From a virus, in IMG/VR virus record IMGVR_UViG_3300045988_147738, positions 102,432 through 166,431 of that record: DNA of 64,000 bases, one strand, 5' to 3'. Position 1 is the stretch's first letter, and each line of letters begins with the position of its first letter. Of this stretch, positions 43,878-56,249 are shown piece after piece. The position numbers were made by a program, and so were the translations under genes. Under the pieces are notes generated by a model, which was not told the origin of the DNA, did not search any database, and worked only from the letters and a program-made list of their open reading frames with translations.

Positions 43878-43956
43878 TGGTGCCGCTGACCGGACTTGAA
43901 CCGGTACGACTTTAGGGTCGGCAGATTTTCGTACTACTCTATATCACTATAGCCAC
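43878..43956 (-). ncRNA. Non-canonical tRNA-like element (T-arm ACCGG-TTCAAGT-CCGGT, 3' CCA; anticodon-region loop CCUAAA)
   Basis: Canonical T-arm and a CCA 3' end, but the acceptor and anticodon stems do not pair in a standard cloverleaf. The loop CGAC-CCTAAA-GTCG contains CUA/UAA. Confidence 0.3.
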
Positions 43957-44007
43957 ATTACTGTGTTGTAGTCTGGACTATGTCTTCACCATATCAAATG
44001 ACTTAGG

Positions 44008-44470
44008 TGGTTGGTATATAGTCTCTACACATTTATTTGACACAATTTTTACCACGATAAGAATCTGTAAATGCATGGCAATTTGGACATAATAACTAAT
44101 AATTTTCTAAAACATTATTATTTCTATTACCATCTTTATGATGTAGTTCTAATGGAATAGGTTGCCCTAACCATTCAGTCATACCACAACATTCACATTG
44201 ATAATTTTTATATCCTTCTCGTAATAATTTATTTCTTACTTTATTACTTTGAATGTCTAAACTAGAATCTAAATATTCTTGTAATGGCATATAATTATTA
44301 TTTGATTTTGACTACCCCTTACCGCTTTGATTTCCAGAATAATCAATACCTAATTTAGCAAGAACTGAATTAATTGTTTTCGGATTACAATTCAATTCTC
44401 TAGCCATATAAGCCTTAGACTAATTTTTATCTATCCATTGTAATATTTCATTTTTTCGTTCTAAAATATC
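44008..44470 (-). CDS. HNH homing endonuclease; three in-frame TAG codons
   Basis: …CECCG…LELHHKDGNRNNNVLENY(TAG)LLCPNCHA… HNH motif; track ORF 44096..44290 extended on both sides. Confidence 0.55.
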
Positions 44471-45010
44471 AGTTCGCATAAAATGCTCCTTTTAAATTAA
44501 TCTCTTTCTATATATTATATCAAAATTAATTTAAATAAATTATCTTACACTGTCCAAAAATTTTAGAGCGTGTGCCAAAACTTAGCACGGCGTTCTGTGT
44601 TTGCCTTCGCCGTTTTAGCCAACTTCTACTCTAAGAGTTTCCTCTTAGGCACTCTCTACGAAAATCCTCGTAGTCCACATTTGTGGAAAACACATTAAAG
44701 TCTGCTGTGTCTGCCTATTCCACCACAGCGGCATATAACAAGGCTCTAAATATGTAAAAAAAATTTTTCAAGCAATTTTTCGAGATTGTATTTTAAAAAC
44801 ACAAATTTGCTGTAATGAGCCTTTATTTATTTTTTTTGTTTTGTATGAATATATTTTTTTAGAAATTTACAACCGCCACATCCATTTTTATTTTTACAAC
44901 GATAACAATTATCAGTGTCAAAATAAAAATACCAAGGTGGTTCAGGGCGTTTTTTTCTTACTTTTTGTTTCATTTTCTATATATATTATATTATATTTTT
45001 TTAAATTTGT

Positions 45011-45151
45011 CAAACAAGACTCTTTTGTTTGGTTCCACCGCGTTTGACCACTTCGCTACCGACCCATATGGTGGGCCAGGGTAGATTCGAACTACCGAAC
45101 CAGTTAAGGAGTGGATTTACTATCCAGTTTTTGCTGTTCAAGTCTTTATAT
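45011..45151 (-). ncRNA. Circularly permuted tRNA gene (3' half upstream of 5' half), type-II-like
   Basis: Minus-strand order: leader AAGACT…, 3' half TCCAC-TCCTTAACTGGTTC-GGTAG-TTCGAAT-CTACC-CTGGCCC-A-CCA, TAT, 5' half GGGTCGG-TA-GCG-AAGTGGTCAAA-CGC-G-GTGGA…, trailer …AGTCTT. Acceptor (GGGTCGG/CTGGCCC, 7 bp with two G·U) and anticodon stem (GTGGA/TCCAC) form only between the displaced halves; leader and trailer are complementary over 6 bp. Confidence 0.4.
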
Positions 45152-45178
45152 ATATTATAATATATATTTTAATAAAAA

Positions 45179-45475
45179 TCAAATATTTTCTTTCAAATCA
45201 GCGCTCATCGCTTCAATTTTAATCAAATCAGATTTTTTCCAGTTGATTGACCGATTATAATTTTTAGCAATTCTGCGATGACCCTTATTCCGCGTTTTTT
45301 CAGAACACCAAGGGCATGAGCAATGAATTTTATTTTTTGAATATTGATGGAGATTATTATAATAATCAGGGCTATCACTCCAACAATAAATATTTCGTAT
45401 GATTTGACGTTTCCTTAATGCTTTTCTCTTGGATACATCACGATTATAGGCTCTTGATAATGGTTTATTTTCCAT
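45179..45475 (-). CDS. Hypothetical zinc-binding protein
   Basis: 98-aa Cys/His-rich ORF with its own promoter. Confidence 0.4.
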   Translation of the reverse strand: MENKPLSRAYNRDVSKRKALRKRQIIRNIYCWSDSPDYYNNLHQYSKNKIHCSCPWCSEKTRNKGHRRIAKNYNRSINWKKSDLIKIEAMSADLKENI

Positions 45476-45620
45476 AATTTTTCCTCCTATAAATCTTTTA
45501 GTCTGGCGCCGGGGGTGGGATTCGAACCCACGGGAGTAATTAGCTCACACAAGTTTTCAAGACTAGGCGCTTATGACCGCTTGCGCACCCCGGCATATGG
45601 GGTATTAAACCCCGTTTATA

Positions 45621-45992
45621 TTACATTTCCTGTTCGAGACAAATGACTTCATTCTTTGCGAACTCAGCATCTCTAGACGCATCATTGAAATAAGTCCGCA
45701 TACGCTTGTAATAGGCCTCAGCCGCATCCAACTGGCGAAGCGCATCACCCATTTTCTTTTCTGCGCGCTTCACGCGCTTATCAGCCACCTTAGCATTACA
45801 CCGAGCTGCTGCAAGCTTCTTACCATTATCCTCAGAAAAATTATCACGAGGATCACACTTAGCATAACCCTTTACAGTTCTACCAGCATAGGTAGAAACT
45901 GCGGAAACCGTCTTCTTACCATTCTTGTCATAATAAATAAAATACTTATACTTATCCAGAGAATACTTCATAATAATACACCTTTTTCTCAA
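45621..45992 (-). CDS. Hypothetical coiled-coil protein
   Basis: 123-aa ORF preceded by an intrinsic terminator hairpin. Confidence 0.4.
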   Translation of the reverse strand: MRKRCIIMKYSLDKYKYFIYYDKNGKKTVSAVSTYAGRTVKGYAKCDPRDNFSEDNGKKLAAARCNAKVADKRVKRAEKKMGDALRQLDAAEAYYKRMRTYFNDASRDAEFAKNEVICLEQEM

Positions 45993-45995
45993 AAA

Positions 45996-46033
45996 AATAG
46001 CGAATGAGGGTCATACCACTCGCTTATAGGCCC
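45996..46033 (-). terminator. Rho-independent terminator (minus strand)
   Basis: GCGAGTGG-TATGACC-CTCATTCGC followed by TATTTTTTT. Confidence 0.5.
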
Positions 46034-46114
46034 ATATTAATTTATATACCGCACTAAATCTCTAATAGAGCAAGTTAGCTAAACTTATGACCACGGCCAT
46101 CCGTGCGGATATTA

Positions 46115-46189
46115 TGGAGCCGGATGACGGATTCGAACCCCCGACCTATCGCTTACAAGGCGATTGCACTACCACTGTGCTAATCCGGC
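46115..46189 (-). tRNA. tRNA-Thr (UGU)
   Basis: GCCGGAT-TA-GCAC-AGTGGTA-GTGC-A-ATCGC-CTTGTAA-GCGAT…TTCGAAT…ATCCGGC-T-CCA. Confidence 0.65.
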
Positions 46190-54970: not shown

Positions 54971-54988
54971 TTATTATCCTCCTATTGG

Positions 54989-55065
54989 ATTTGGGGTGGC
55001 TAGGCAGATTCGAACTGCCGACCTTCTGGGCCACAACCAGACGTTCTTACCATCTGAACTATAGC
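54989..55065 (-). tRNA. tRNA-His (GUG)
   Basis: GTGGCTA-TA-GTTC-AGATGGTAA-GAAC-G-TCTGG-TTGTGGC-CCAGA…GGCAG-TTCGAAT-CTGCC-TAGCCAC-C-CCA. Confidence 0.65.
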
Positions 55066-55066
55066 C

Positions 55067-55156
55067 ACATGGCGTAGATAGAAGGATTCGAACCTTCGAG
55101 CCGCTCACGCGACTAATGCCTTAGCAGGGCACCGCATTCAACCACTCTGCCATATC
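55067..55156 (-). tRNA. tRNA-Ser (GCU), type II
   Basis: GTAGATA…GTGCC-CTGCTAA-GGCAT plus long variable arm, then GAAGG-TTCGAAT-CCTTC-TATCTAC-G-CCA. Confidence 0.65.
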
Positions 55157-55717
55157 TACATATGCGTTTATGAAATTTCGTATAAAAATAAGAAAATTAG
55201 CGAATTTTCACTAACCGCGTCTCCTCTGCATTTCTACGGACTTGGAACCGCCATCGGTTGCATTAAACGCGGATTATCTCTCGCTAACACATGGATAATC
55301 CTCTGATCCGAAAATCATATCATCAATATCATGAAACATTTAAATTCCCTCCTATTCTTAATAAAGCAAAAATGGAACGTAGAAAAACGACCTGTATTGT
55401 GAAGTTAGAAATAAAGGAAAAATCAATCTATGCCAAACTTAAAACAAAGGAGATACACAAATGAACGCAATCTACAGGCTAGATGTAAAAGACTCGTTCC
55501 ATATAATAGTCTTTTGTTTCTATATACTTCAAAATATATAGAAAGAGATAACCAATCCCACAGCCATACGGTCTATTTGTGCAAATATTTAGATTTACAT
55601 GGACTTGCAACCAAATATCATTTAGGAGGCACATATTATGTCATATGTATGGATCTCTCATTGTGGGTCTTAACAAAAAAGAAAGGACTTATTAAAAAGA
55701 GGGAAAATGATTTTTTA

Positions 55718-55908
55718 TTACTCTGCTGTAGGAGCGACCTTCTTACGATGTTTTACATATCGCTCGCCATCAGCCTGCGACATCCAAATTCGCGTTCCAT
55801 CAGCGAAATGAAAATCGTAGAACCAATCCTTCTCAGTCTCGTCAATCTTATGGACAAAACCCTTACCGTATTTCTTACAAAACACTTTATCGCCGGGAAC
55901 AAATTTCA
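55718..55908 (-). CDS. Small hypothetical protein
   Basis: MKFVPGDKVFCKKYGKGFVHKIDE… with RBS AAAGGAGAAAT. Confidence 0.4.
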
Positions 55909-55958
55909 TACTTAAATTTCTCCTTTTGGATGTTTTTCTACTAGGCACTATCTTTACG

Positions 55959-56030
55959 CTCCGGAATACGGATTCGAACCGTAGACCTCTTTCTTTTGGA
56001 AAGTGCTCTAACCAACTAAGCTATTCTGGA
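55959..56030 (-). tRNA. tRNA-like with ambiguous anticodon loop (stem CTTTC/GAAAG closing only 5 nt, CAAAA)
   Basis: Canonical D- and T-arms, acceptor with one A·C mismatch; the anticodon arm cannot form a 7-nt loop without mispairing. Confidence 0.35.
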
Positions 56031-56082
56031 AAAGATAATTGCTGTTAATGCCTTATATGTTAATTTTATTGTTTATTATTTC

Positions 56083-56166
56083 AAGACGCAATAGGGATTT
56101 GAACCCATTCGTTTTCAGTTTTGAAGACTAAATTCTTAACCAGTAAATGATTTGCTGGATGCGTCT
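56083..56166 (-). tRNA. tRNA-like with perfect 7-bp acceptor (AGACGCA/TGCGTCT) and anticodon-region loop AUUUAG(U) (possible UUA anticodon), weak T-stem
   Basis: Acceptor and D-stem pair well and a T-loop TTCAAAT is present; the anticodon arm has only a 4-bp AAGA/TCTT stem around ATTTAG. No CCA is encoded. Confidence 0.3.
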
Positions 56167-56169
56167 TAA

Positions 56170-56249
56170 TGGTTGCGTTGCCTGGGAGTCGAACCCAGTA
56201 TCACTGGCTTATGAGGCCAGTATGGTAAATCCGTTCCACTCGCCCGCAA
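56170..56249 (-). tRNA. tRNA (CAU)-like with non-pairing 5' acceptor strand
   Basis: Anticodon arm CTGGC-CTCATAA-GCCAG and T-arm CTGGG-TTCGACT-CCCAG are canonical and end …GCAACGCAACCA, but the 5' strand TTGCGGGCG pairs only over 5 bp. Confidence 0.35.

What the first reader, a model, noticed from the sequence alone, without database searches (positions are those of the whole stretch)
43878..56249. Cluster of non-canonical tRNA-like elements (odd loops, missing arms, mispaired acceptors)
Besides 18 or more canonical tRNAs, the array contains several irregular elements. At 43878–43956 a perfect T-arm and CCA accompany non-pairing acceptor strands and a CCUAAA loop. At 50290–50356 a canonical 5' acceptor and D-arm are followed by a hairpin and no T-arm. 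At 55959–56030 the anticodon loop is only 5 nt. At 56083–56166 a perfect acceptor and 4-bp anticodon stem surround AUUUAG, a possible UUA ochre-reading anticodon. At 56170–56249 canonical CAU anticodon and T arms have a mismatched 5' acceptor strand. At 49631–49704 and 56982–57059 the T-stems have 3 bp. Some may be further split or permuted genes whose partners I have not located, tRNA-mimic ncRNAs (Y-RNA-like), or decoys.
Basis: seen in the sequence. Interest (0 to 1): 0.6.

Follow-up and report, generated by a model that had tools for sequence, protein, structure and literature searches.

The report
Split and mimic tRNAs in phage
The odd tRNA look-alikes in this phage's tRNA cluster are real but are not one thing: some are pieces of tRNA genes split by mobile introns or homing-endonuclease cassettes, some are Y-RNA-like tRNA mimics encoded near a phage Ro60 protein, some are working tRNAs with weak arms, and the same cluster holds tRNA genes interrupted by a tRNA-shaped intron I could not find described anywhere.

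Summary
The irregularities are real: Infernal and ARAGORN keep them, so they are not hand-folding errors. One coordinate pair is about 40 nt off. The window is an uncultivated ~198-kb phage with in-frame TAG codons and a minus-strand tRNA array.

- **Item 1 (43878-43956):** exon 2 of tRNA-Leu(UAA), split at U34|A35 by a 768-nt group I intron carrying an HNH gene.
- **Item 2 (really 50357-50395):** the 5' remnant of a tRNA-Pro displaced by an HNH cassette that brought its own tRNA-Pro (49631-49704).
- **Items 3 and 4:** members of a family of 10 cassettes in this window. Each has a covarying terminal helix AAGRC.../...GYCUU plus an invariant CAGCAA. Three cassettes are circularly permuted tRNA mimics with YrlA topology. 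A Ro60-like protein is encoded 3 kb away.
- **Item 5:** an initiator-like tRNA(CAU) with a damaged acceptor stem.
- **tRNA-Pro and tRNA-Glu(CUC):** genuine 3-bp T stems.

In the same array, tRNA-Lys, tRNA-Gln and tRNA-Arg(UCU) are interrupted in the anticodon loop. Each insert is exactly tRNA-shaped, running from N1 to CCA (CCU in the tRNA-Gln insert). Intron-less alleles confirm the boundaries. This looks like a new intron type.

The parts
43878..43929 (-). tRNA-Leu(UAA) exon 2: anticodon-loop 3' part, long variable arm CGAC-CCUAAA-GUCG, T arm, CAGCGGC-A-CCA. This is the core of finding item 1.
   Evidence: Intron-less alleles in L002 and L004 read GCAGACTTAAAATCTGC.
43930..44697 (-). 768-nt group I intron between U34 and A35, carrying an HNH endonuclease ORF (44033-44479, with in-frame TAG codons).
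   Evidence: U at -1 and a terminal G. The ORF-less version in L005 matches Rfam Intron_gpI at 44.9 bits, E 3e-10, over the full model. HNH domain.
44698..44732 (-). tRNA-Leu(UAA) exon 1 (GCCGCTG... pairs perfectly with CAGCGGC).
50357..50395 (-). 5' remnant of a displaced tRNA-Pro(UGG), running from the acceptor 5' strand to position ~39. This is finding item 2 at corrected coordinates.
   Evidence: L001-L004 carry the intact gene CCGGGTG...CACTCGGACCA at this place. The window and L005 have the 3' half replaced.
49725..50282 (-). Free-standing HNH homing-endonuclease ORF between the remnant and the incoming tRNA-Pro.
   Evidence: Pfam HNH, E 1.3e-7. Presence/absence polymorphism.
49631..49704 (-). 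tRNA-Pro(UGG) brought in with the HNH cassette. Its T stem has only 3 Watson-Crick pairs.
   Evidence: It is 93% identical to the resident tRNA-Pro of the distant relative L034, with compensatory changes at 2:71 and 7:66 and the same weak T stem.
55941..56055 (-). Cassette (leader AAGGCA..CAGCAA..UAUCUUU, trailer AAAGAUA.UGCCU) enclosing a normal-order tRNA-like with a 5-nt anticodon loop (55959-56030, finding item 3).
56082..56168 (-). Cassette whose closing helix AAGACGC/GCGUCUU takes the place of an acceptor stem. CAGCAA falls in a D-arm-like hairpin, and the T arm has a 3-bp stem. This is finding item 4.
56170..56249 (-). tRNA(CAU)-like with initiator-like ends (GCGGG... / ...CGCA-ACCA) but only 4-5 acceptor pairs. 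This is finding item 5.
   Evidence: Rfam tRNA 35.8 bits with the 5' acceptor strand deleted. Identical in 5 relatives. The initiator resemblance rests on my memory of the E. coli tRNA-fMet sequence.
56982..57058 (-). tRNA-Glu(CUC), an allele with a 3-bp T stem (GCGAG/CUCCG).
   Evidence: L001-L005 carry a different allele with a 5-bp T stem.
45015..45147 (-). Cassette (i): a circularly permuted tRNA-Tyr-like. Order: leader, ..GUAAA-UCCAC, variable region, T arm, CUGGCCC-ACCA-uau-GGGUCGG, D arm, GUGGA, trailer.
   Evidence: The stem UCCAC/GUGGA becomes UCCGU/ACGGA in L034, a compensatory change.
48329..48458 (-). Cassette (iii): a permuted tRNA-like with a hairpin, T arm, closed acceptor UGAACGC-A-cug-GCGUUUA, D arm and a complete anticodon arm (CUGAUAA).
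   Evidence: Counterparts exist in L028 and L034.
51951..52079 (-). Cassette (ii): a permuted tRNA-like with YrlA topology (T arm, closed acceptor UUUCCGC-A-acauau-GCGGGAA, D arm).
   Evidence: Rfam YrlA 37.9 bits, E 3e-7, below the gathering score of 69..
58642..58712 (-). Small cassette without a tRNA-like domain, between tRNA-Phe and tRNA-Asn.
54289..54356 (-). Small cassette. Its trailer is followed by a 13-nt spacer beginning GUAUAU and then the tRNA-Arg 5' end (in relatives L001-L004 the spacer is 6 nt, GUAUAU).
47039..47100 (-). Small cassette directly upstream of the suppressor tRNA(CUA).
44739..44824 (-). Small cassette directly upstream of tRNA-Leu exon 1.
42963..43030 (-). Small cassette upstream of tRNA-Lys.
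42714..42900 (-). tRNA-Lys(UUU) interrupted at U34|U35 by a 112-nt tRNA-shaped insert (42756-42867: GGUGGAA...AUGAG-UUCAAAU-CUCAU-UUCCGCC-U-CCA). Exons are 42868-42900 and 42714-42755.
   Evidence: (intron-less alleles in L004 and L005 with loop CTTTTAA).
47943..48139 (-). tRNA-Gln(UUG) interrupted by a 121-nt tRNA-shaped insert (47984-48104: CGAGAAA...AUGAG-UGCAAGU-CUCAU-UUUCUCG-C-CCU).
   Evidence: The intron-less L038 tRNA-Gln has an identical anticodon arm, CACAGGACTTTGACTCCTGCA.
53291..54275 (-). tRNA-Arg(UCU) interrupted at C35|U36 by a 907-nt tRNA-shaped insert (53333-54239) that carries a GIY-YIG ORF (53357-54142).
   Evidence: L001-L004 have an uninterrupted tRNA-Arg(UCU) at the same place.
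38230..39759 (-). Ro60-like protein (TROVE-like HEAT ring plus vWA domain with MIDAS motif DTSGSM). Proposed partner of the cassettes.
26747..28117 (-). ATP-dependent RNA ligase, weakly DRB0094-like. Candidate exon-sealing enzyme.
   Evidence: Pfam RNA_ligase E 6e-6, 26.9 bits, just under its gathering score of 27; TIGR02306 E 3e-10, 39.4 bits, far below its cutoff of 151.

Best explanation
The irregular elements are not one class. They come from three processes acting on the tRNA array of a large phage that reads TAG as sense.

(1) **Mobile DNA splits or displaces tRNA genes.**
- Item 1 is exon 2 of tRNA-Leu(UAA). Exon 1 lies 768 nt upstream, across a self-splicing group I intron at the classical U34|A35 site. 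The intron carries an HNH homing endonuclease.
- Item 2 is the dead 5' stump of a tRNA-Pro. Its 3' half was replaced when a free-standing HNH cassette moved in together with its own tRNA-Pro, presumably one the endonuclease does not cut.

(2) **Items 3 and 4 are tRNA-derived non-coding RNAs, not decoders.** They belong to a family of 10 cassettes in this window.
- Each cassette is closed by a covarying helix, 5'-AAGRCNNN / NNNGYCUU-3', followed on the 5' strand by an invariant CAGCAA.
- The interior varies. It can be nothing much, a T arm only (item 4), a whole cloverleaf with a 5-nt anticodon loop (item 3), or a circularly permuted tRNA body (three units with YrlA topology).
- I propose they are Y-RNA-like partners of the phage's Ro60-like protein. 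The terminal stem plus CAGCAA bulge would be the protein-binding module, and the tRNA-like body would be the effector module.

(3) **Items 5 and 6 are tRNA genes with damaged or relaxed helices.**
- tRNA-Pro and tRNA-Glu(CUC) are probably functional despite 3-bp T stems.
- Item 5, an initiator-like CAU tRNA with 4-5 acceptor pairs, is probably impaired or a pseudogene.

**What is shown and what is inferred.** Shown: the sequence anatomy, presence/absence alleles, intron core homology, helix covariation and the Ro60 fold. Inferred: Ro60 binding, the function of the mimics, and the activity of the weak-stem tRNAs.
For: **Item 1.**
- ARAGORN with introns pairs 43878-43929 with 44698-44732 through a perfect 7-bp acceptor.
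- Relatives L002 and L004 have the intron-less gene with loop CUUAAAA.
- L005 has an ORF-less intron that Rfam Intron_gpI matches end to end (44.9 bits, E 3e-10).
- The intron ORF has an HNH domain.

**Item 2.**
- Four relatives have an intact tRNA-Pro where the window has stump + HNH ORF + a second tRNA-Pro.
- The incoming tRNA-Pro is 93% identical to the resident one of the distant phage L034.
- The same architecture (stumps + HNH + own tRNA) recurs at tRNA-Leu(UAG) in L002.

**Items 3 and 4.**
- The motif AAGRC-N5-CAGCAA occurs 9 times against 0.07 expected, all on the minus strand inside the array.
- Across 38 distinct cassettes from 17 loci of ~10 phage lineages, the closing helix is 89.8% paired. 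The covariation score is 0.43 against 0.156 +/- 0.02 in shuffles (0 of 500 reach it), and the score collapses in every slid register.
- Rfam YrlA hits cassette (ii) at E 3e-7.
- The permuted classes are conserved, with compensatory changes, in phages whose Ro60-like proteins are only 71-73% identical.
- The Ro60 fold is assigned.
- The five relatives fetched through that protein and scanned (L032, L034, L036-L038) also carry cassettes.
- Published phage Ro60 binds Y-like RNAs that have a 5'-3' stem and a motif-bearing bulge (PMC12135203). YrlA mimics tRNA and sits near Ro60, also in phages (PMC4201824).

**Items 5 and 6.**
Against: - No experiment links the cassettes to the Ro60-like protein.
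- The Y-RNA signature motif (GNCGAAN0-1G / CGAA) is absent. Only cassette (ii) reaches even half of Rfam's YrlA gathering score, and cassettes (i) and (iii) give no YrlA hit at E<=10.
- Ten cassettes is far more than the 2-4 Y RNAs known per genome.
- At least five cassettes end 6-14 nt before a tRNA 5' end, which could equally mean a role in pre-tRNA processing.
- The cassettes lie 3-19 kb from the Ro60-like gene, not adjacent to it.
- The trailers used in the covariation count were chosen by best pairing among GYCUU sites, so the count is somewhat biased.
- Class (iii) units keep a perfect anticodon arm, which a pure protein tether would not need.
- The close relatives (92-98% identity) are too similar to test selection on items 3-5.
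Confidence: 0.6

Rival explanations
1. Junk left by homing-endonuclease traffic. On this view items 2-5, the cassettes and the permuted units are decaying fragments and rearranged pieces of tRNA genes with no function of their own.
For: The array is demonstrably churned by at least five endonuclease genes. Stumps of displaced tRNA genes exist. Item 5 looks like a damaged initiator tRNA.
Against: The cassette helix covaries across ~10 phage lineages while CAGCAA stays invariant. The three permuted classes are conserved with compensatory changes in phages ~30% diverged at the protein level. The 5-nt loop of item 3 and all of item 5 are unchanged in six genomes that differ by 2-6% nearby.
Confidence: 0.15
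2. Precursors of real decoding tRNAs that need unusual maturation. The permuted units would be permuted tRNA genes as in Cyanidioschyzon merolae. The cassette helix would be the processing signal, cut and ligated to a circle that is then opened at the acceptor by RNase P and a 3' nuclease. Alternatively they work as two-piece tRNAs split in the variable-arm position.
For: The 3' half precedes the 5' half, with 7-bp acceptors, and unit (i) has A73-CCA. Class (iii) keeps a canonical anticodon arm (CUGAUAA; CUGUAAA in L028). Class (i) keeps GUAAA of a Tyr loop. The same module occurs closed, inside normal-order tRNA-like genes, in L029. The phage encodes an RNA ligase.
Against: No bulge-helix-bulge motif is present. 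In classes (i) and (ii), joining the ends gives no sensible 7-nt loop with U33. The anticodon of class (iii) differs between phages (GAU, GUA, UAA), and normal tRNA-Ile(GAU) and tRNA-Tyr(GUA) genes already exist in the array. Item 3 has a 5-nt loop and item 4 has no D arm. In L029 the module replaces the whole anticodon arm.
Confidence: 0.12
3. Decoys or sponges for host anticodon nucleases or other tRNA-targeting defences. tRNA look-alikes with altered anticodon loops would soak up the nuclease, or resist it, while the phage's own tRNAs and ligase keep translation going.
For: The context is an RNA-repair-type gene set: RNA ligase, Ro60-like, MVP-like. The tRNA bodies are intact while the anticodon loops are altered (items 3, 4; class (i) Tyr-like). 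Jumbo-phage tRNAs and Ro/TROVE proteins have been interpreted as counter-defence (PMC7824862).
Against: Nothing identifies a cognate nuclease. The conserved part is the closing helix and CAGCAA, not the anticodon region. This reading is compatible with, not exclusive of, the Ro60-partner reading.
Confidence: 0.1
4. Hand-folding artefact. On this view the elements are ordinary tRNAs once boundaries are set by covariance models.
For: Items 3, 5 and both weak-T-stem genes do score above Rfam's tRNA gathering threshold.
Against: The model alignments retain the defects: the 2-nt loop deletion, the deleted 5' acceptor strand and the mismatched T-stem pairs. Items 1, 2 and 4 get no standard tRNA call at all.
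Confidence: 0.02

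Closest known systems
YrlA / Y RNA-Ro60 ribonucleoproteins (Chen et al. 2014, PMC4201824; Thermus phage phiLo Ro60 with Yrl1 and Yrl2, PMC12135203)
   Same: A terminal 5'-3' stem with a conserved motif on its 5' side. A tRNA-like domain ordered T arm, closed acceptor stem-loop, D arm. Encoded in the neighbourhood of a Ro60-fold protein, in a phage. 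Seven-bp acceptor hairpins, like the M. smegmatis YrlA that RNase P cuts.
   Different: The motif is CAGCAA after an AAGRC/GYCUU helix, not GNCGAAN0-1G. There are ten copies, embedded in a tRNA operon, and at least five end 6-14 nt before a tRNA. The module occurs alone, with a permuted body, with a normal-order body, or (in L029) as a closed arm inside a tRNA-like. The Ro60 homologue is so divergent that Pfam files it as DUF2828/DUF7788.
Group I introns in bacterial and plastid tRNA-Leu(UAA) and other tRNA anticodon loops (review PMC3984707)
   Same: Insertion between U34 and A35, U at -1, terminal G, a core matching RF00028, an optional homing-endonuclease ORF, and sporadic presence among close relatives.
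   Different: The host is a phage tRNA gene. The ORF is an HNH gene read with TAG as sense.
Free-standing homing endonucleases in phage tRNA clusters (T4 SegB; from memory)
   Same: An endonuclease gene sits next to a tRNA gene and is inherited together with it, replacing the resident allele.
   Different: The enzymes here are HNH rather than GIY-YIG, and the replacement leaves visible 5' (and in L002 also 3') stumps of the old tRNA gene.
Circularly permuted and split tRNA genes of Cyanidioschyzon merolae, Thermofilum and Nanoarchaeum (reviewed in PMC4090602)
   Same: The 3' half is encoded upstream of the 5' half with a short linker. Leader and trailer pair with each other.
   Different: No bulge-helix-bulge motif, no splicing endonuclease context, mostly no reconstitutable anticodon loop, and a bacterial virus as host.
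Protein-spliced tRNA introns of archaea and eukaryotes, and RNase P/RNase Z release of tRNA-like mascRNA from MALAT1 (from memory)
   Same: For the tRNA-shaped inserts: an intron in the anticodon loop with no ribozyme core, and a tRNA-like structure that defines cleavage sites for tRNA end-processing enzymes.
   Different: The positions are 34|35 or 35|36 rather than 37|38. There is no BHB motif. The intron itself is a cloverleaf-like body from +1 to CCA. It is found in phages of bacteria and can carry a GIY-YIG gene.
Theta (HDV-like) ribozymes next to CCA-less phage tRNAs (PMC10879173)
   Same: An HDV-like fold starts 2 nt after the discriminator of the CCA-less tRNA-Asp (56473-56540). The phage recodes TAG and carries a DRB0094-type ligase, as reported for theta-ribozyme phages.
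   Different: This is not one of the listed irregular elements. It scores below Rfam's gathering threshold (34.4 against 44).

Membership tests
Canonical elongator tRNA (Rfam RF00005 cloverleaf) | 7-nt anticodon loop with U33 | tested here: not met
   Item 3: the covariance-model alignment needs a 2-nt deletion, giving a 5-nt loop. Item 4: a 6-nt loop AUUUAG.
Canonical elongator tRNA (Rfam RF00005 cloverleaf) | 7-bp acceptor stem formed by the gene's own ends | tested here: not met
   Item 5: the model deletes 5 positions, 4 of them in the 5' acceptor strand, leaving 4-5 pairs. Item 1: no local 5' strand. Item 2: no 3' half.
Canonical elongator tRNA (Rfam RF00005 cloverleaf) | Score at or above the gathering threshold (29 bits) | tested here: inconclusive
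   Met by item 3 (49.2), item 5 (35.8), tRNA-Pro (48.6) and tRNA-Glu(CUC) (45.2). Not met by items 1, 2 and 4.
Canonical elongator tRNA (Rfam RF00005 cloverleaf) | 5-bp T stem | tested here: not met
   tRNA-Pro has CGCAG/CUGAC and tRNA-Glu(CUC) has GCGAG/CUCCG, each with 3 Watson-Crick pairs. The acceptor of tRNA-Pro nevertheless shows compensatory changes against L034.
Group I intron in a tRNA anticodon loop | Insertion after U34 of tRNA-Leu(UAA), U at -1, terminal G | tested here: met
   Comparison with the intron-less alleles in L002 and L004.
Group I intron in a tRNA anticodon loop | Conserved catalytic core (RF00028) | tested here: inconclusive
   44.9 bits against a gathering score of 50, but E 3e-10 and full model coverage on the ORF-less L005 copy. 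The window copy is disrupted by its ORF and gives no hit.
Group I intron in a tRNA anticodon loop | Self-splicing with guanosine | not testable with these tools
   Needs in vitro transcription and a splicing assay.
YrlA-type Y RNA | Encoded near a Ro60 (TROVE + vWA) gene | tested here: met
   A Ro60-fold protein lies at 38230-39759. The cassettes are 3-19 kb away, which is looser than the 'adjacent' of PMC4201824.
YrlA-type Y RNA | tRNA-like domain ordered T arm, acceptor stem-loop, D arm, closed by a 5'-3' stem | tested here: met
   Units (i), (ii) and (iii). Closing-helix covariation.
YrlA-type Y RNA | GNCGAAN0-1G (CGAA) motif in the Ro-binding module | tested here: not met
   The invariant motif is CAGCAA. 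Only unit (ii) contains GGCGAA, and there it is inside the stem.
YrlA-type Y RNA | Rfam RF02553 gathering score (69 bits) | tested here: not met
   Unit (ii) scores 37.9 bits. Units (i) and (iii) give no hit at E<=10.
YrlA-type Y RNA | Bound by Ro60 | not testable with these tools
   Needs pull-down, EMSA or CLIP.
Permuted tRNA genes (C. merolae type) | 3' half upstream of 5' half in one transcription unit | tested here: met
Permuted tRNA genes (C. merolae type) | Bulge-helix-bulge motif formed by leader and trailer | tested here: not met
   Leader and trailer form a continuous 8-10 bp helix with a one-sided CAGCAA loop. No pair of 3-nt bulges 4 bp apart is present (inspection).
Permuted tRNA genes (C. 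merolae type) | Mature tRNA with a normal anticodon loop after joining | tested here: inconclusive
   Class (iii) has an intact anticodon arm. Classes (i) and (ii) do not reconstitute one.
Free-standing homing endonuclease with linked cargo | Endonuclease domain, presence/absence polymorphism and co-replacement of flanking target DNA | tested here: met
   HNH domain. Four relatives lack the cassette and have the intact tRNA-Pro. A parallel case in L002.
Archaeal/eukaryal protein-spliced tRNA introns (considered for the tRNA-shaped inserts) | Canonical 37|38 position and/or BHB motif | tested here: not met
   The inserts sit at 34|35 or 35|36. Their ends form a 7-bp acceptor-like stem with a 4-nt 3' tail.

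The most novel reading that the evidence does not exclude
The array holds a previously undescribed kind of intron. It is a mobile, tRNA-shaped intervening sequence with a 7-bp acceptor stem, a D-arm-like hairpin, a degenerate middle that may carry a GIY-YIG gene, a canonical T arm and N73-CCA. It is inserted at position 34|35 or 35|36 of tRNA-Lys(UUU), tRNA-Gln(UUG) and tRNA-Arg(UCU) here, and of tRNA-Gln and tRNA-Gly(UCC) in relatives.

The insert runs exactly from its own +1 to its own position 76. I therefore propose that the cell's tRNA end-processing enzymes cut it out: RNase P at the 5' junction and an RNase Z/BN-type cut after CCA. Both cuts leave 3'-OH and 5'-phosphate ends, which an ATP-dependent RNA ligase can seal directly; the phage's DRB0094-like ligase is the candidate.

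This would be protein-dependent tRNA splicing in a bacterial virus, parasitic on the tRNA maturation and RNA repair machinery. The PD-(D/E)XK-ORF inserts at 36|37 of tRNA-Trp (and of tRNA-Val in L034) also start with a terminal helix and end in a 3-nt tail, so they may use the same route.
Probability: 0.4. Interest if true: 0.9.

Novelty: new variant of a known kind. Interest (0 to 1): 0.78.

Why it matters
**Annotation.** Standard tools mislabel or miss a fifth of this phage's tRNA set.
- ARAGORN's intron mode names the interrupted genes Thr, Glu, Arg(UCG), Phe(GAA) and Arg(CCG).
- They are in fact Lys(UUU), Gln(UUG), Arg(UCU), Leu(UAA) and Trp(CCA).
- 'tRNA-Phe(AAA)' is a non-decoding mimic.
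- Surveys of phage tRNA repertoires and codon-usage matching in recoded gut phages inherit such errors.

**Ro60 and Y RNA biology.** The Ro60-like protein has more than 7,900 homologues in metagenomes, filed only as DUFs. It comes with a new Y-RNA-like module that can be recognised by a simple motif and is wired into tRNA operons. That gives Ro60/Y-RNA biology an abundant and diverse phage system. It also points to a link between Ro60 and pre-tRNA handling.

**A possible new splicing route.** If the tRNA-shaped inserts are spliced as proposed, they are a new way for a selfish element to be phenotypically silent. It would need no ribozyme and no dedicated endonuclease, only mimicry of a tRNA. 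They would also be the first protein-dependent tRNA splicing in the bacterial world.

Tried and rejected
- **Cultured relatives.** A megablast of the whole array against 50,697 cultured phage records found only tRNA-Glu-sized matches, so there is no cultured relative.
- **ARAGORN anticodon calls.** Its calls for the interrupted genes (Thr-UGU, Glu-UUC, Arg-UCG, Phe-GAA, Arg-CCG) are rejected, because the intron-less alleles and homologues give other junctions. Most other ARAGORN '-io' intron calls are chimeras of neighbouring tRNAs.
- **UUA ochre-suppressor reading of item 4.** Rejected.
- **BHB motifs.** None found at any junction, by inspection.
- **More members of the GIY-YIG-bearing insert.** The protein search and the 22-nt pattern from the insert's T arm found only the same phage lineage in IMG/VR.
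- **PDB sequence search.** The Ro60-like protein and the ligase gave no hits. The Ro60 relationship appeared only at the fold level.
- **YrlA model.** It does not detect units (i) and (iii). Its second hit, 55011-55128, is the tRNA-His/tRNA-Ser dimer artefact that Chen et al. warn about.
- **Structured element after tRNA-Trp (60146-60201).** It looks like an HDV-type nested pseudoknot by hand, but Rfam gives nothing at E<=1 and I could not place a catalytic C. I do not claim it.
- **Origin of items 3 and 5.** Global alignment to the array's tRNAs gave no clear parent.
- **Covariation count.** My first count used a wrong register and was repeated correctly.
- **Literature.** Searches for tRNA-shaped or nested tRNA introns in phages found nothing. 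One search was wasted on an ambiguous term.

Full report
**Context.**
- The window carries a tRNA array, all on the minus strand, from 42448 to 61011. ARAGORN tRNAs and Rfam gives 25 tRNA hits at gathering score.
- Many long minus-strand ORFs are open only if TAG is read as sense, and a tRNA(CUA) sits at 46959-47030.
- No cultured phage is similar.
- Five IMG/VR contigs of 128-198 kb from one sample are 92-98% identical across the array (L001-L005).
- More distant relatives were reached through a repeated RNA motif (L021-L031) and through a conserved protein (L032, L034, L036-L038).
- These relatives differ by clean presence or absence of inserts, and that is what resolves most of the finding.

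**Check of the observation.**
- Every listed irregularity is in the sequence and survives covariance-model alignment.
- Item 3 needs a 2-nt deletion in the anticodon loop. Item 5 loses four of the seven 5' acceptor positions. Item 4 matches nothing better than tRNA-Sec at 25.5 bits. tRNA-Pro and tRNA-Glu(CUC) have three Watson-Crick T-stem pairs.
- Only item 2 is misplaced. The acceptor, D arm and half anticodon arm are at 50395-50357, not 50290-50356.

**Item 1 is half of a gene split by a group I intron.**
- With introns allowed, ARAGORN joins 43878-43929 to 44698-44732 through a perfect 7-bp acceptor (GCCGCUG/CAGCGGC) and a class II body.
- L002 and L004 have the uninterrupted gene with loop CUUAAAA. 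The window gene is therefore tRNA-Leu(UAA), interrupted between U34 and A35 by 768 nt that follow a U and end in G. ARAGORN's junction and its 'Phe-GAA' label are wrong.
- L005 has a 337-nt ORF-less version that Rfam Intron_gpI aligns over all 253 model positions (44.9 bits, E 3e-10, just under the gathering score of 50).
- The window copy carries an HNH ORF.

**Item 2 is a stump.**
- L001-L004 have an intact tRNA-Pro(UGG), CCGGGUG...CACUCGG-A-CCA.
- In the window and L005 the gene stops after position ~39. It continues into an HNH ORF (50282-49725) and a second, complete but different tRNA-Pro(UGG) at 49631-49704.
- That second gene is 93% identical to the resident tRNA-Pro of L034. Compensatory changes at 2:71 and 7:66 and the same 3-bp T stem suggest it is a functional tRNA that travelled with the endonuclease.
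- In L002 a similar HNH-plus-tRNA cassette sits in the middle of tRNA-Leu(UAG) and leaves both a 5' and a 3' stump.
- This resembles T4 SegB-type inheritance of tRNA regions (from memory).

**Items 3 and 4 belong to a repeated RNA cassette.**
- Both start with AAGRC-N5-CAGCAA. The motif occurs 9 times in the window against 0.07 expected, a tenth copy has N6, and all copies lie on the minus strand inside the array.
- Each leader pairs with a trailer NNNGYCUU-G 60-130 nt downstream.
- Across 38 distinct cassettes from the window and 16 other loci of ~10 phage lineages, the 9-bp helix is 89.8% paired.
  - Pairs 4, 6, 7 and 8 change on both sides.
  - The covariation score is 0.43 against 0.156 +/- 0.02 in shuffles (0 of 500 reach it), and it collapses in every slid register.
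  - The trailers were picked by best pairing among GYCUU sites, which is a modest bias.
- The interiors differ:
  - Five cassettes are simple 62-86-nt hairpin domains, most ending 6-14 nt before a tRNA 5' end (spacers beginning GUAUAU or similar).
  - Item 4 has only a T arm. Its closing helix takes the place of the acceptor stem and CAGCAA falls in a D-arm-like hairpin.
  - Item 3 is a complete normal-order cloverleaf with a 5-nt anticodon loop. Its acceptor stem is extended by the cassette helices.
  - Three units are circularly permuted tRNA bodies: (i) 45015-45147, (ii) 51951-52079 and (iii) 48329-48458. Their order is T arm, then an acceptor closed by a 4-7-nt loop, then D arm.
- Unit (ii) is hit by Rfam's YrlA model over its whole length (37.9 bits, E 3e-7, gathering score 69). 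Units (i) and (iii) are not.
- The three classes recur in L021, L028, L032 and L034 with compensatory changes, for example UCCAC/GUGGA against UCCGU/ACGGA in class (i).
- In L029 the same module occurs in closed form (GYCUU-loop-AAGRC-N5-CAGCAA). In one normal-order tRNA-like it replaces the anticodon arm, and in another it forms an extra arm.
- The conserved unit is therefore helix + CAGCAA, combined with tRNA bodies in several topologies.

**A Ro60 homologue is encoded next to the array.**
- The 509-aa protein at 38230-39759 matches only DUF2828 and DUF7788 in Pfam and nothing in PDB by sequence.
- It has a MIDAS motif, DTSGSM.
- It is followed by a major-vault-protein-like gene (35567-38059). 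A band-7 protein and an ATP-dependent RNA ligase lie further on.
- The protein family has more than 7,900 members.
- The five relatives fetched through it and scanned also carry cassettes upstream.
- Published work shows that YrlA RNAs mimic tRNA, lie near Ro60 genes, occur in phages, and are cut by RNase P when the acceptor has 7 bp (PMC4201824). It also shows that a phage Ro60 binds two Y-like RNAs built as a 5'-3' stem plus a motif-bearing bulge (PMC12135203).
- On this basis I read the cassettes as a divergent Y-RNA-like family.
- Points against: the motif differs from CGAA, there are ten copies, and their position just upstream of tRNAs could mean a role in pre-tRNA handling.

**Items 5 and 6.**
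- Item 5 has a canonical CAU anticodon arm and T arm, and an initiator-like 3' end (...CGCA-ACCA). Its 3' acceptor strand reads CAACGCA against a 5' GCGGG, leaving 4-5 pairs. The initiator comparison rests on my memory of the E. coli tRNA-fMet sequence.
- Item 5 is identical in all six genomes, which is uninformative at this divergence. I regard it as an impaired or pseudogenic tRNA, with low certainty.
- tRNA-Pro is discussed above. The window's tRNA-Glu(CUC) is a different allele from that of L001-L005, which has a 5-bp T stem.

- Rfam's tRNA hit at 42717-42900 spans 184 nt. L004 and L005 have the same gene uninterrupted, with loop CUUUUAA, that is tRNA-Lys(UUU).
- The 112 extra nucleotides of the window (42756-42867) begin with G and end with CCA. 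The boundaries are unambiguous.
- The insert has these parts:
  - a 7-bp terminal stem (GGUGGAA/UUCCGCC);
  - a D-arm-like hairpin;
  - a degenerate middle;
  - a canonical T arm (AUGAG-UUCAAAU-CUCAU) abutting the 3' strand;
  - U73 and CCA.
- The minimum-free-energy fold of the precursor is a cloverleaf nested in the anticodon loop of a cloverleaf (z = -2.7).
- The same architecture interrupts two more genes in the window: 47943-48139 (121 nt, tail C-CCU) and 53291-54275 (907 nt, with a GIY-YIG ORF inside the insert).
- It also interrupts a tRNA in L034 (about 86 nt) and one in L032 (with a GIY-YIG ORF). In L034 the inner element itself passes Rfam's tRNA threshold (36.2 bits).
- In all five cases, removing N1 to N76 leaves a perfect 7-nt loop: CUUUUAA (Lys), CUUUGAC (Gln, twice), CUUCUAA (Arg-UCU) and CUUCCAA (Gly-UCC).
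- These match intron-less homologues. The L038 tRNA-Gln has an identical anticodon arm, the L036 tRNA-Gly(UCC) is a close homologue, and L001-L004 have a tRNA-Arg(UCU) at the same site.
- Lys(UUU), Gln(UUG) and Arg(UCU) are otherwise absent from the array.
- The inserts are sporadic: L036-L038 have none.
- The T stems of the inserts covary (AUGAG/CUCAU, AUAAG/CUUAU, GUGAG/CUCAC).
- The interrupted tRNA-Gln genes of the window and L034 differ in sequence yet both keep perfect cloverleaf pairing (ACGGCCG/CGGCCGU against UGGGCCA/UGGCCCA). This argues that the interrupted genes are still under selection and so are spliced.
- No group I, group II or BHB features are present.
- My proposed mechanism is inferred, not shown:
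  - RNase P cuts at the insert's +1.
  - An RNase Z/BN-type enzyme cuts after position 76. Enzymes that cut after CCA are known from Thermotoga and E. coli (from memory).
  - Both cuts leave 3'-OH and 5'-phosphate ends, which an ATP-dependent ligase can seal without end healing. The phage has such a ligase, and DRB0094-type ligases are 140-fold enriched in theta-ribozyme phages (PMC10879173).
- I found nothing like this in the held literature.

**Verdict.**
- The finding is real and heterogeneous.
- Two items are ordinary consequences of mobile introns and homing endonucleases.
- Two items belong to a new variant of Y-RNA-like tRNA mimics associated with a divergent phage Ro60.
- Three items are aberrant but recognisable tRNAs.
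- The array also contains what looks like a new kind of tRNA intron. That, rather than the listed elements, is the strongest reason to follow this locus up.

Noticed in passing
window 60202-61011 (-): tRNA-Trp(CCA) is interrupted between A36 and A37 by 738 nt (60238-60975) that are almost entirely a PD-(D/E)XK_5 + HTH ORF. No ribozyme core is recognisable. L001 and L004 have the intron-less gene. The insert's first 7 nt pair with its end, leaving a 3-nt tail, and an 11-bp helix (AAUAUUAUUCC/GGAAUAAUAUU) joins the two ends. L034 has a similar insert at 36|37 of a tRNA-Val(UAC). How it is removed is unknown.
   Followed up: partly
window 59446-60201 (-): Directly after the tRNA-Trp discriminator, where relatives have CCA-UAG, the window has a structured element (CGGGAAC..CCACAAU..ACC-UUCACGC-GGU-GUUCCUG..AUUGUGG) followed by a GIY-YIG ORF (59446-60090). 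L003 has a similar element plus an insert after tRNA-Glu(CUC), ending in a duplicate of the tRNA 3' end. It looks like a ribozyme-plus-endonuclease cassette, but Rfam finds nothing at E<=1.
   Followed up: partly
window 56473-56540 (-): HDV-like ribozyme match (RF02682, 34.4 bits, E 3e-4, gathering score 44) starting 2 nt after the discriminator of the CCA-less tRNA-Asp. This fits the published theta ribozymes of recoded gut phages.
   Followed up: partly
window 55218-55269 (-): Type-P1 twister ribozyme match (46.2 bits, E 1e-8, gathering score 67.2). The conserved core is kept and the central hairpin of the model is missing. It lies 58 nt upstream of tRNA-Ser(GCU).
   Followed up: no
window 46959-47030 (-) and ORFs throughout: A suppressor tRNA(CUA) is present, and many ORFs carry in-frame TAG, including all five homing-endonuclease genes, while other genes have none. 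This indicates partial TAG recoding.
   Followed up: partly
window 46861-47100 (-): The cassette leader AAGGCUUAUC at 47099 has two possible trailers. The near one (47039) lies before the suppressor tRNA. A better-matching one (GAUAAGUCUU, 10 bp) lies ~100 nt after it, so the suppressor tRNA may be enclosed by alternative pairings. This could be a regulatory switch.
   Followed up: no
window 22811-39759 (-): The Ro60-like gene is followed by a major-vault-protein-like gene (MVP shoulder and vault repeat domains). A band-7/flotillin protein and an RNA ligase lie further on. Ro60-like followed by MVP-like is also seen in L037. This is a vault/Ro-like set in a phage.
   Followed up: partly
window 54360-54434 (-): tRNA-Ile with a genomically encoded UAU anticodon, next to a tRNA-Ile(GAU). 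This is unusual for bacterial systems.
   Followed up: no
L029 6674-6750 (-) and L036 625-698 (+): Other phages that carry the cassette motif also have tRNA-likes with abnormal anticodon loops: a 9-nt A-rich loop in L029 and an abnormal loop for which ARAGORN reports only a 2-nt 'anticodon' in L036. Odd-loop tRNA mimics therefore appear to recur in these phages.
   Followed up: no
L032, L034, L036, L038 downstream genes: The relatives encode SLH-domain proteins (all four), and L034 also CHAP and PG_binding proteins, which hints at a Gram-positive (Bacillota) host.
   Followed up: no
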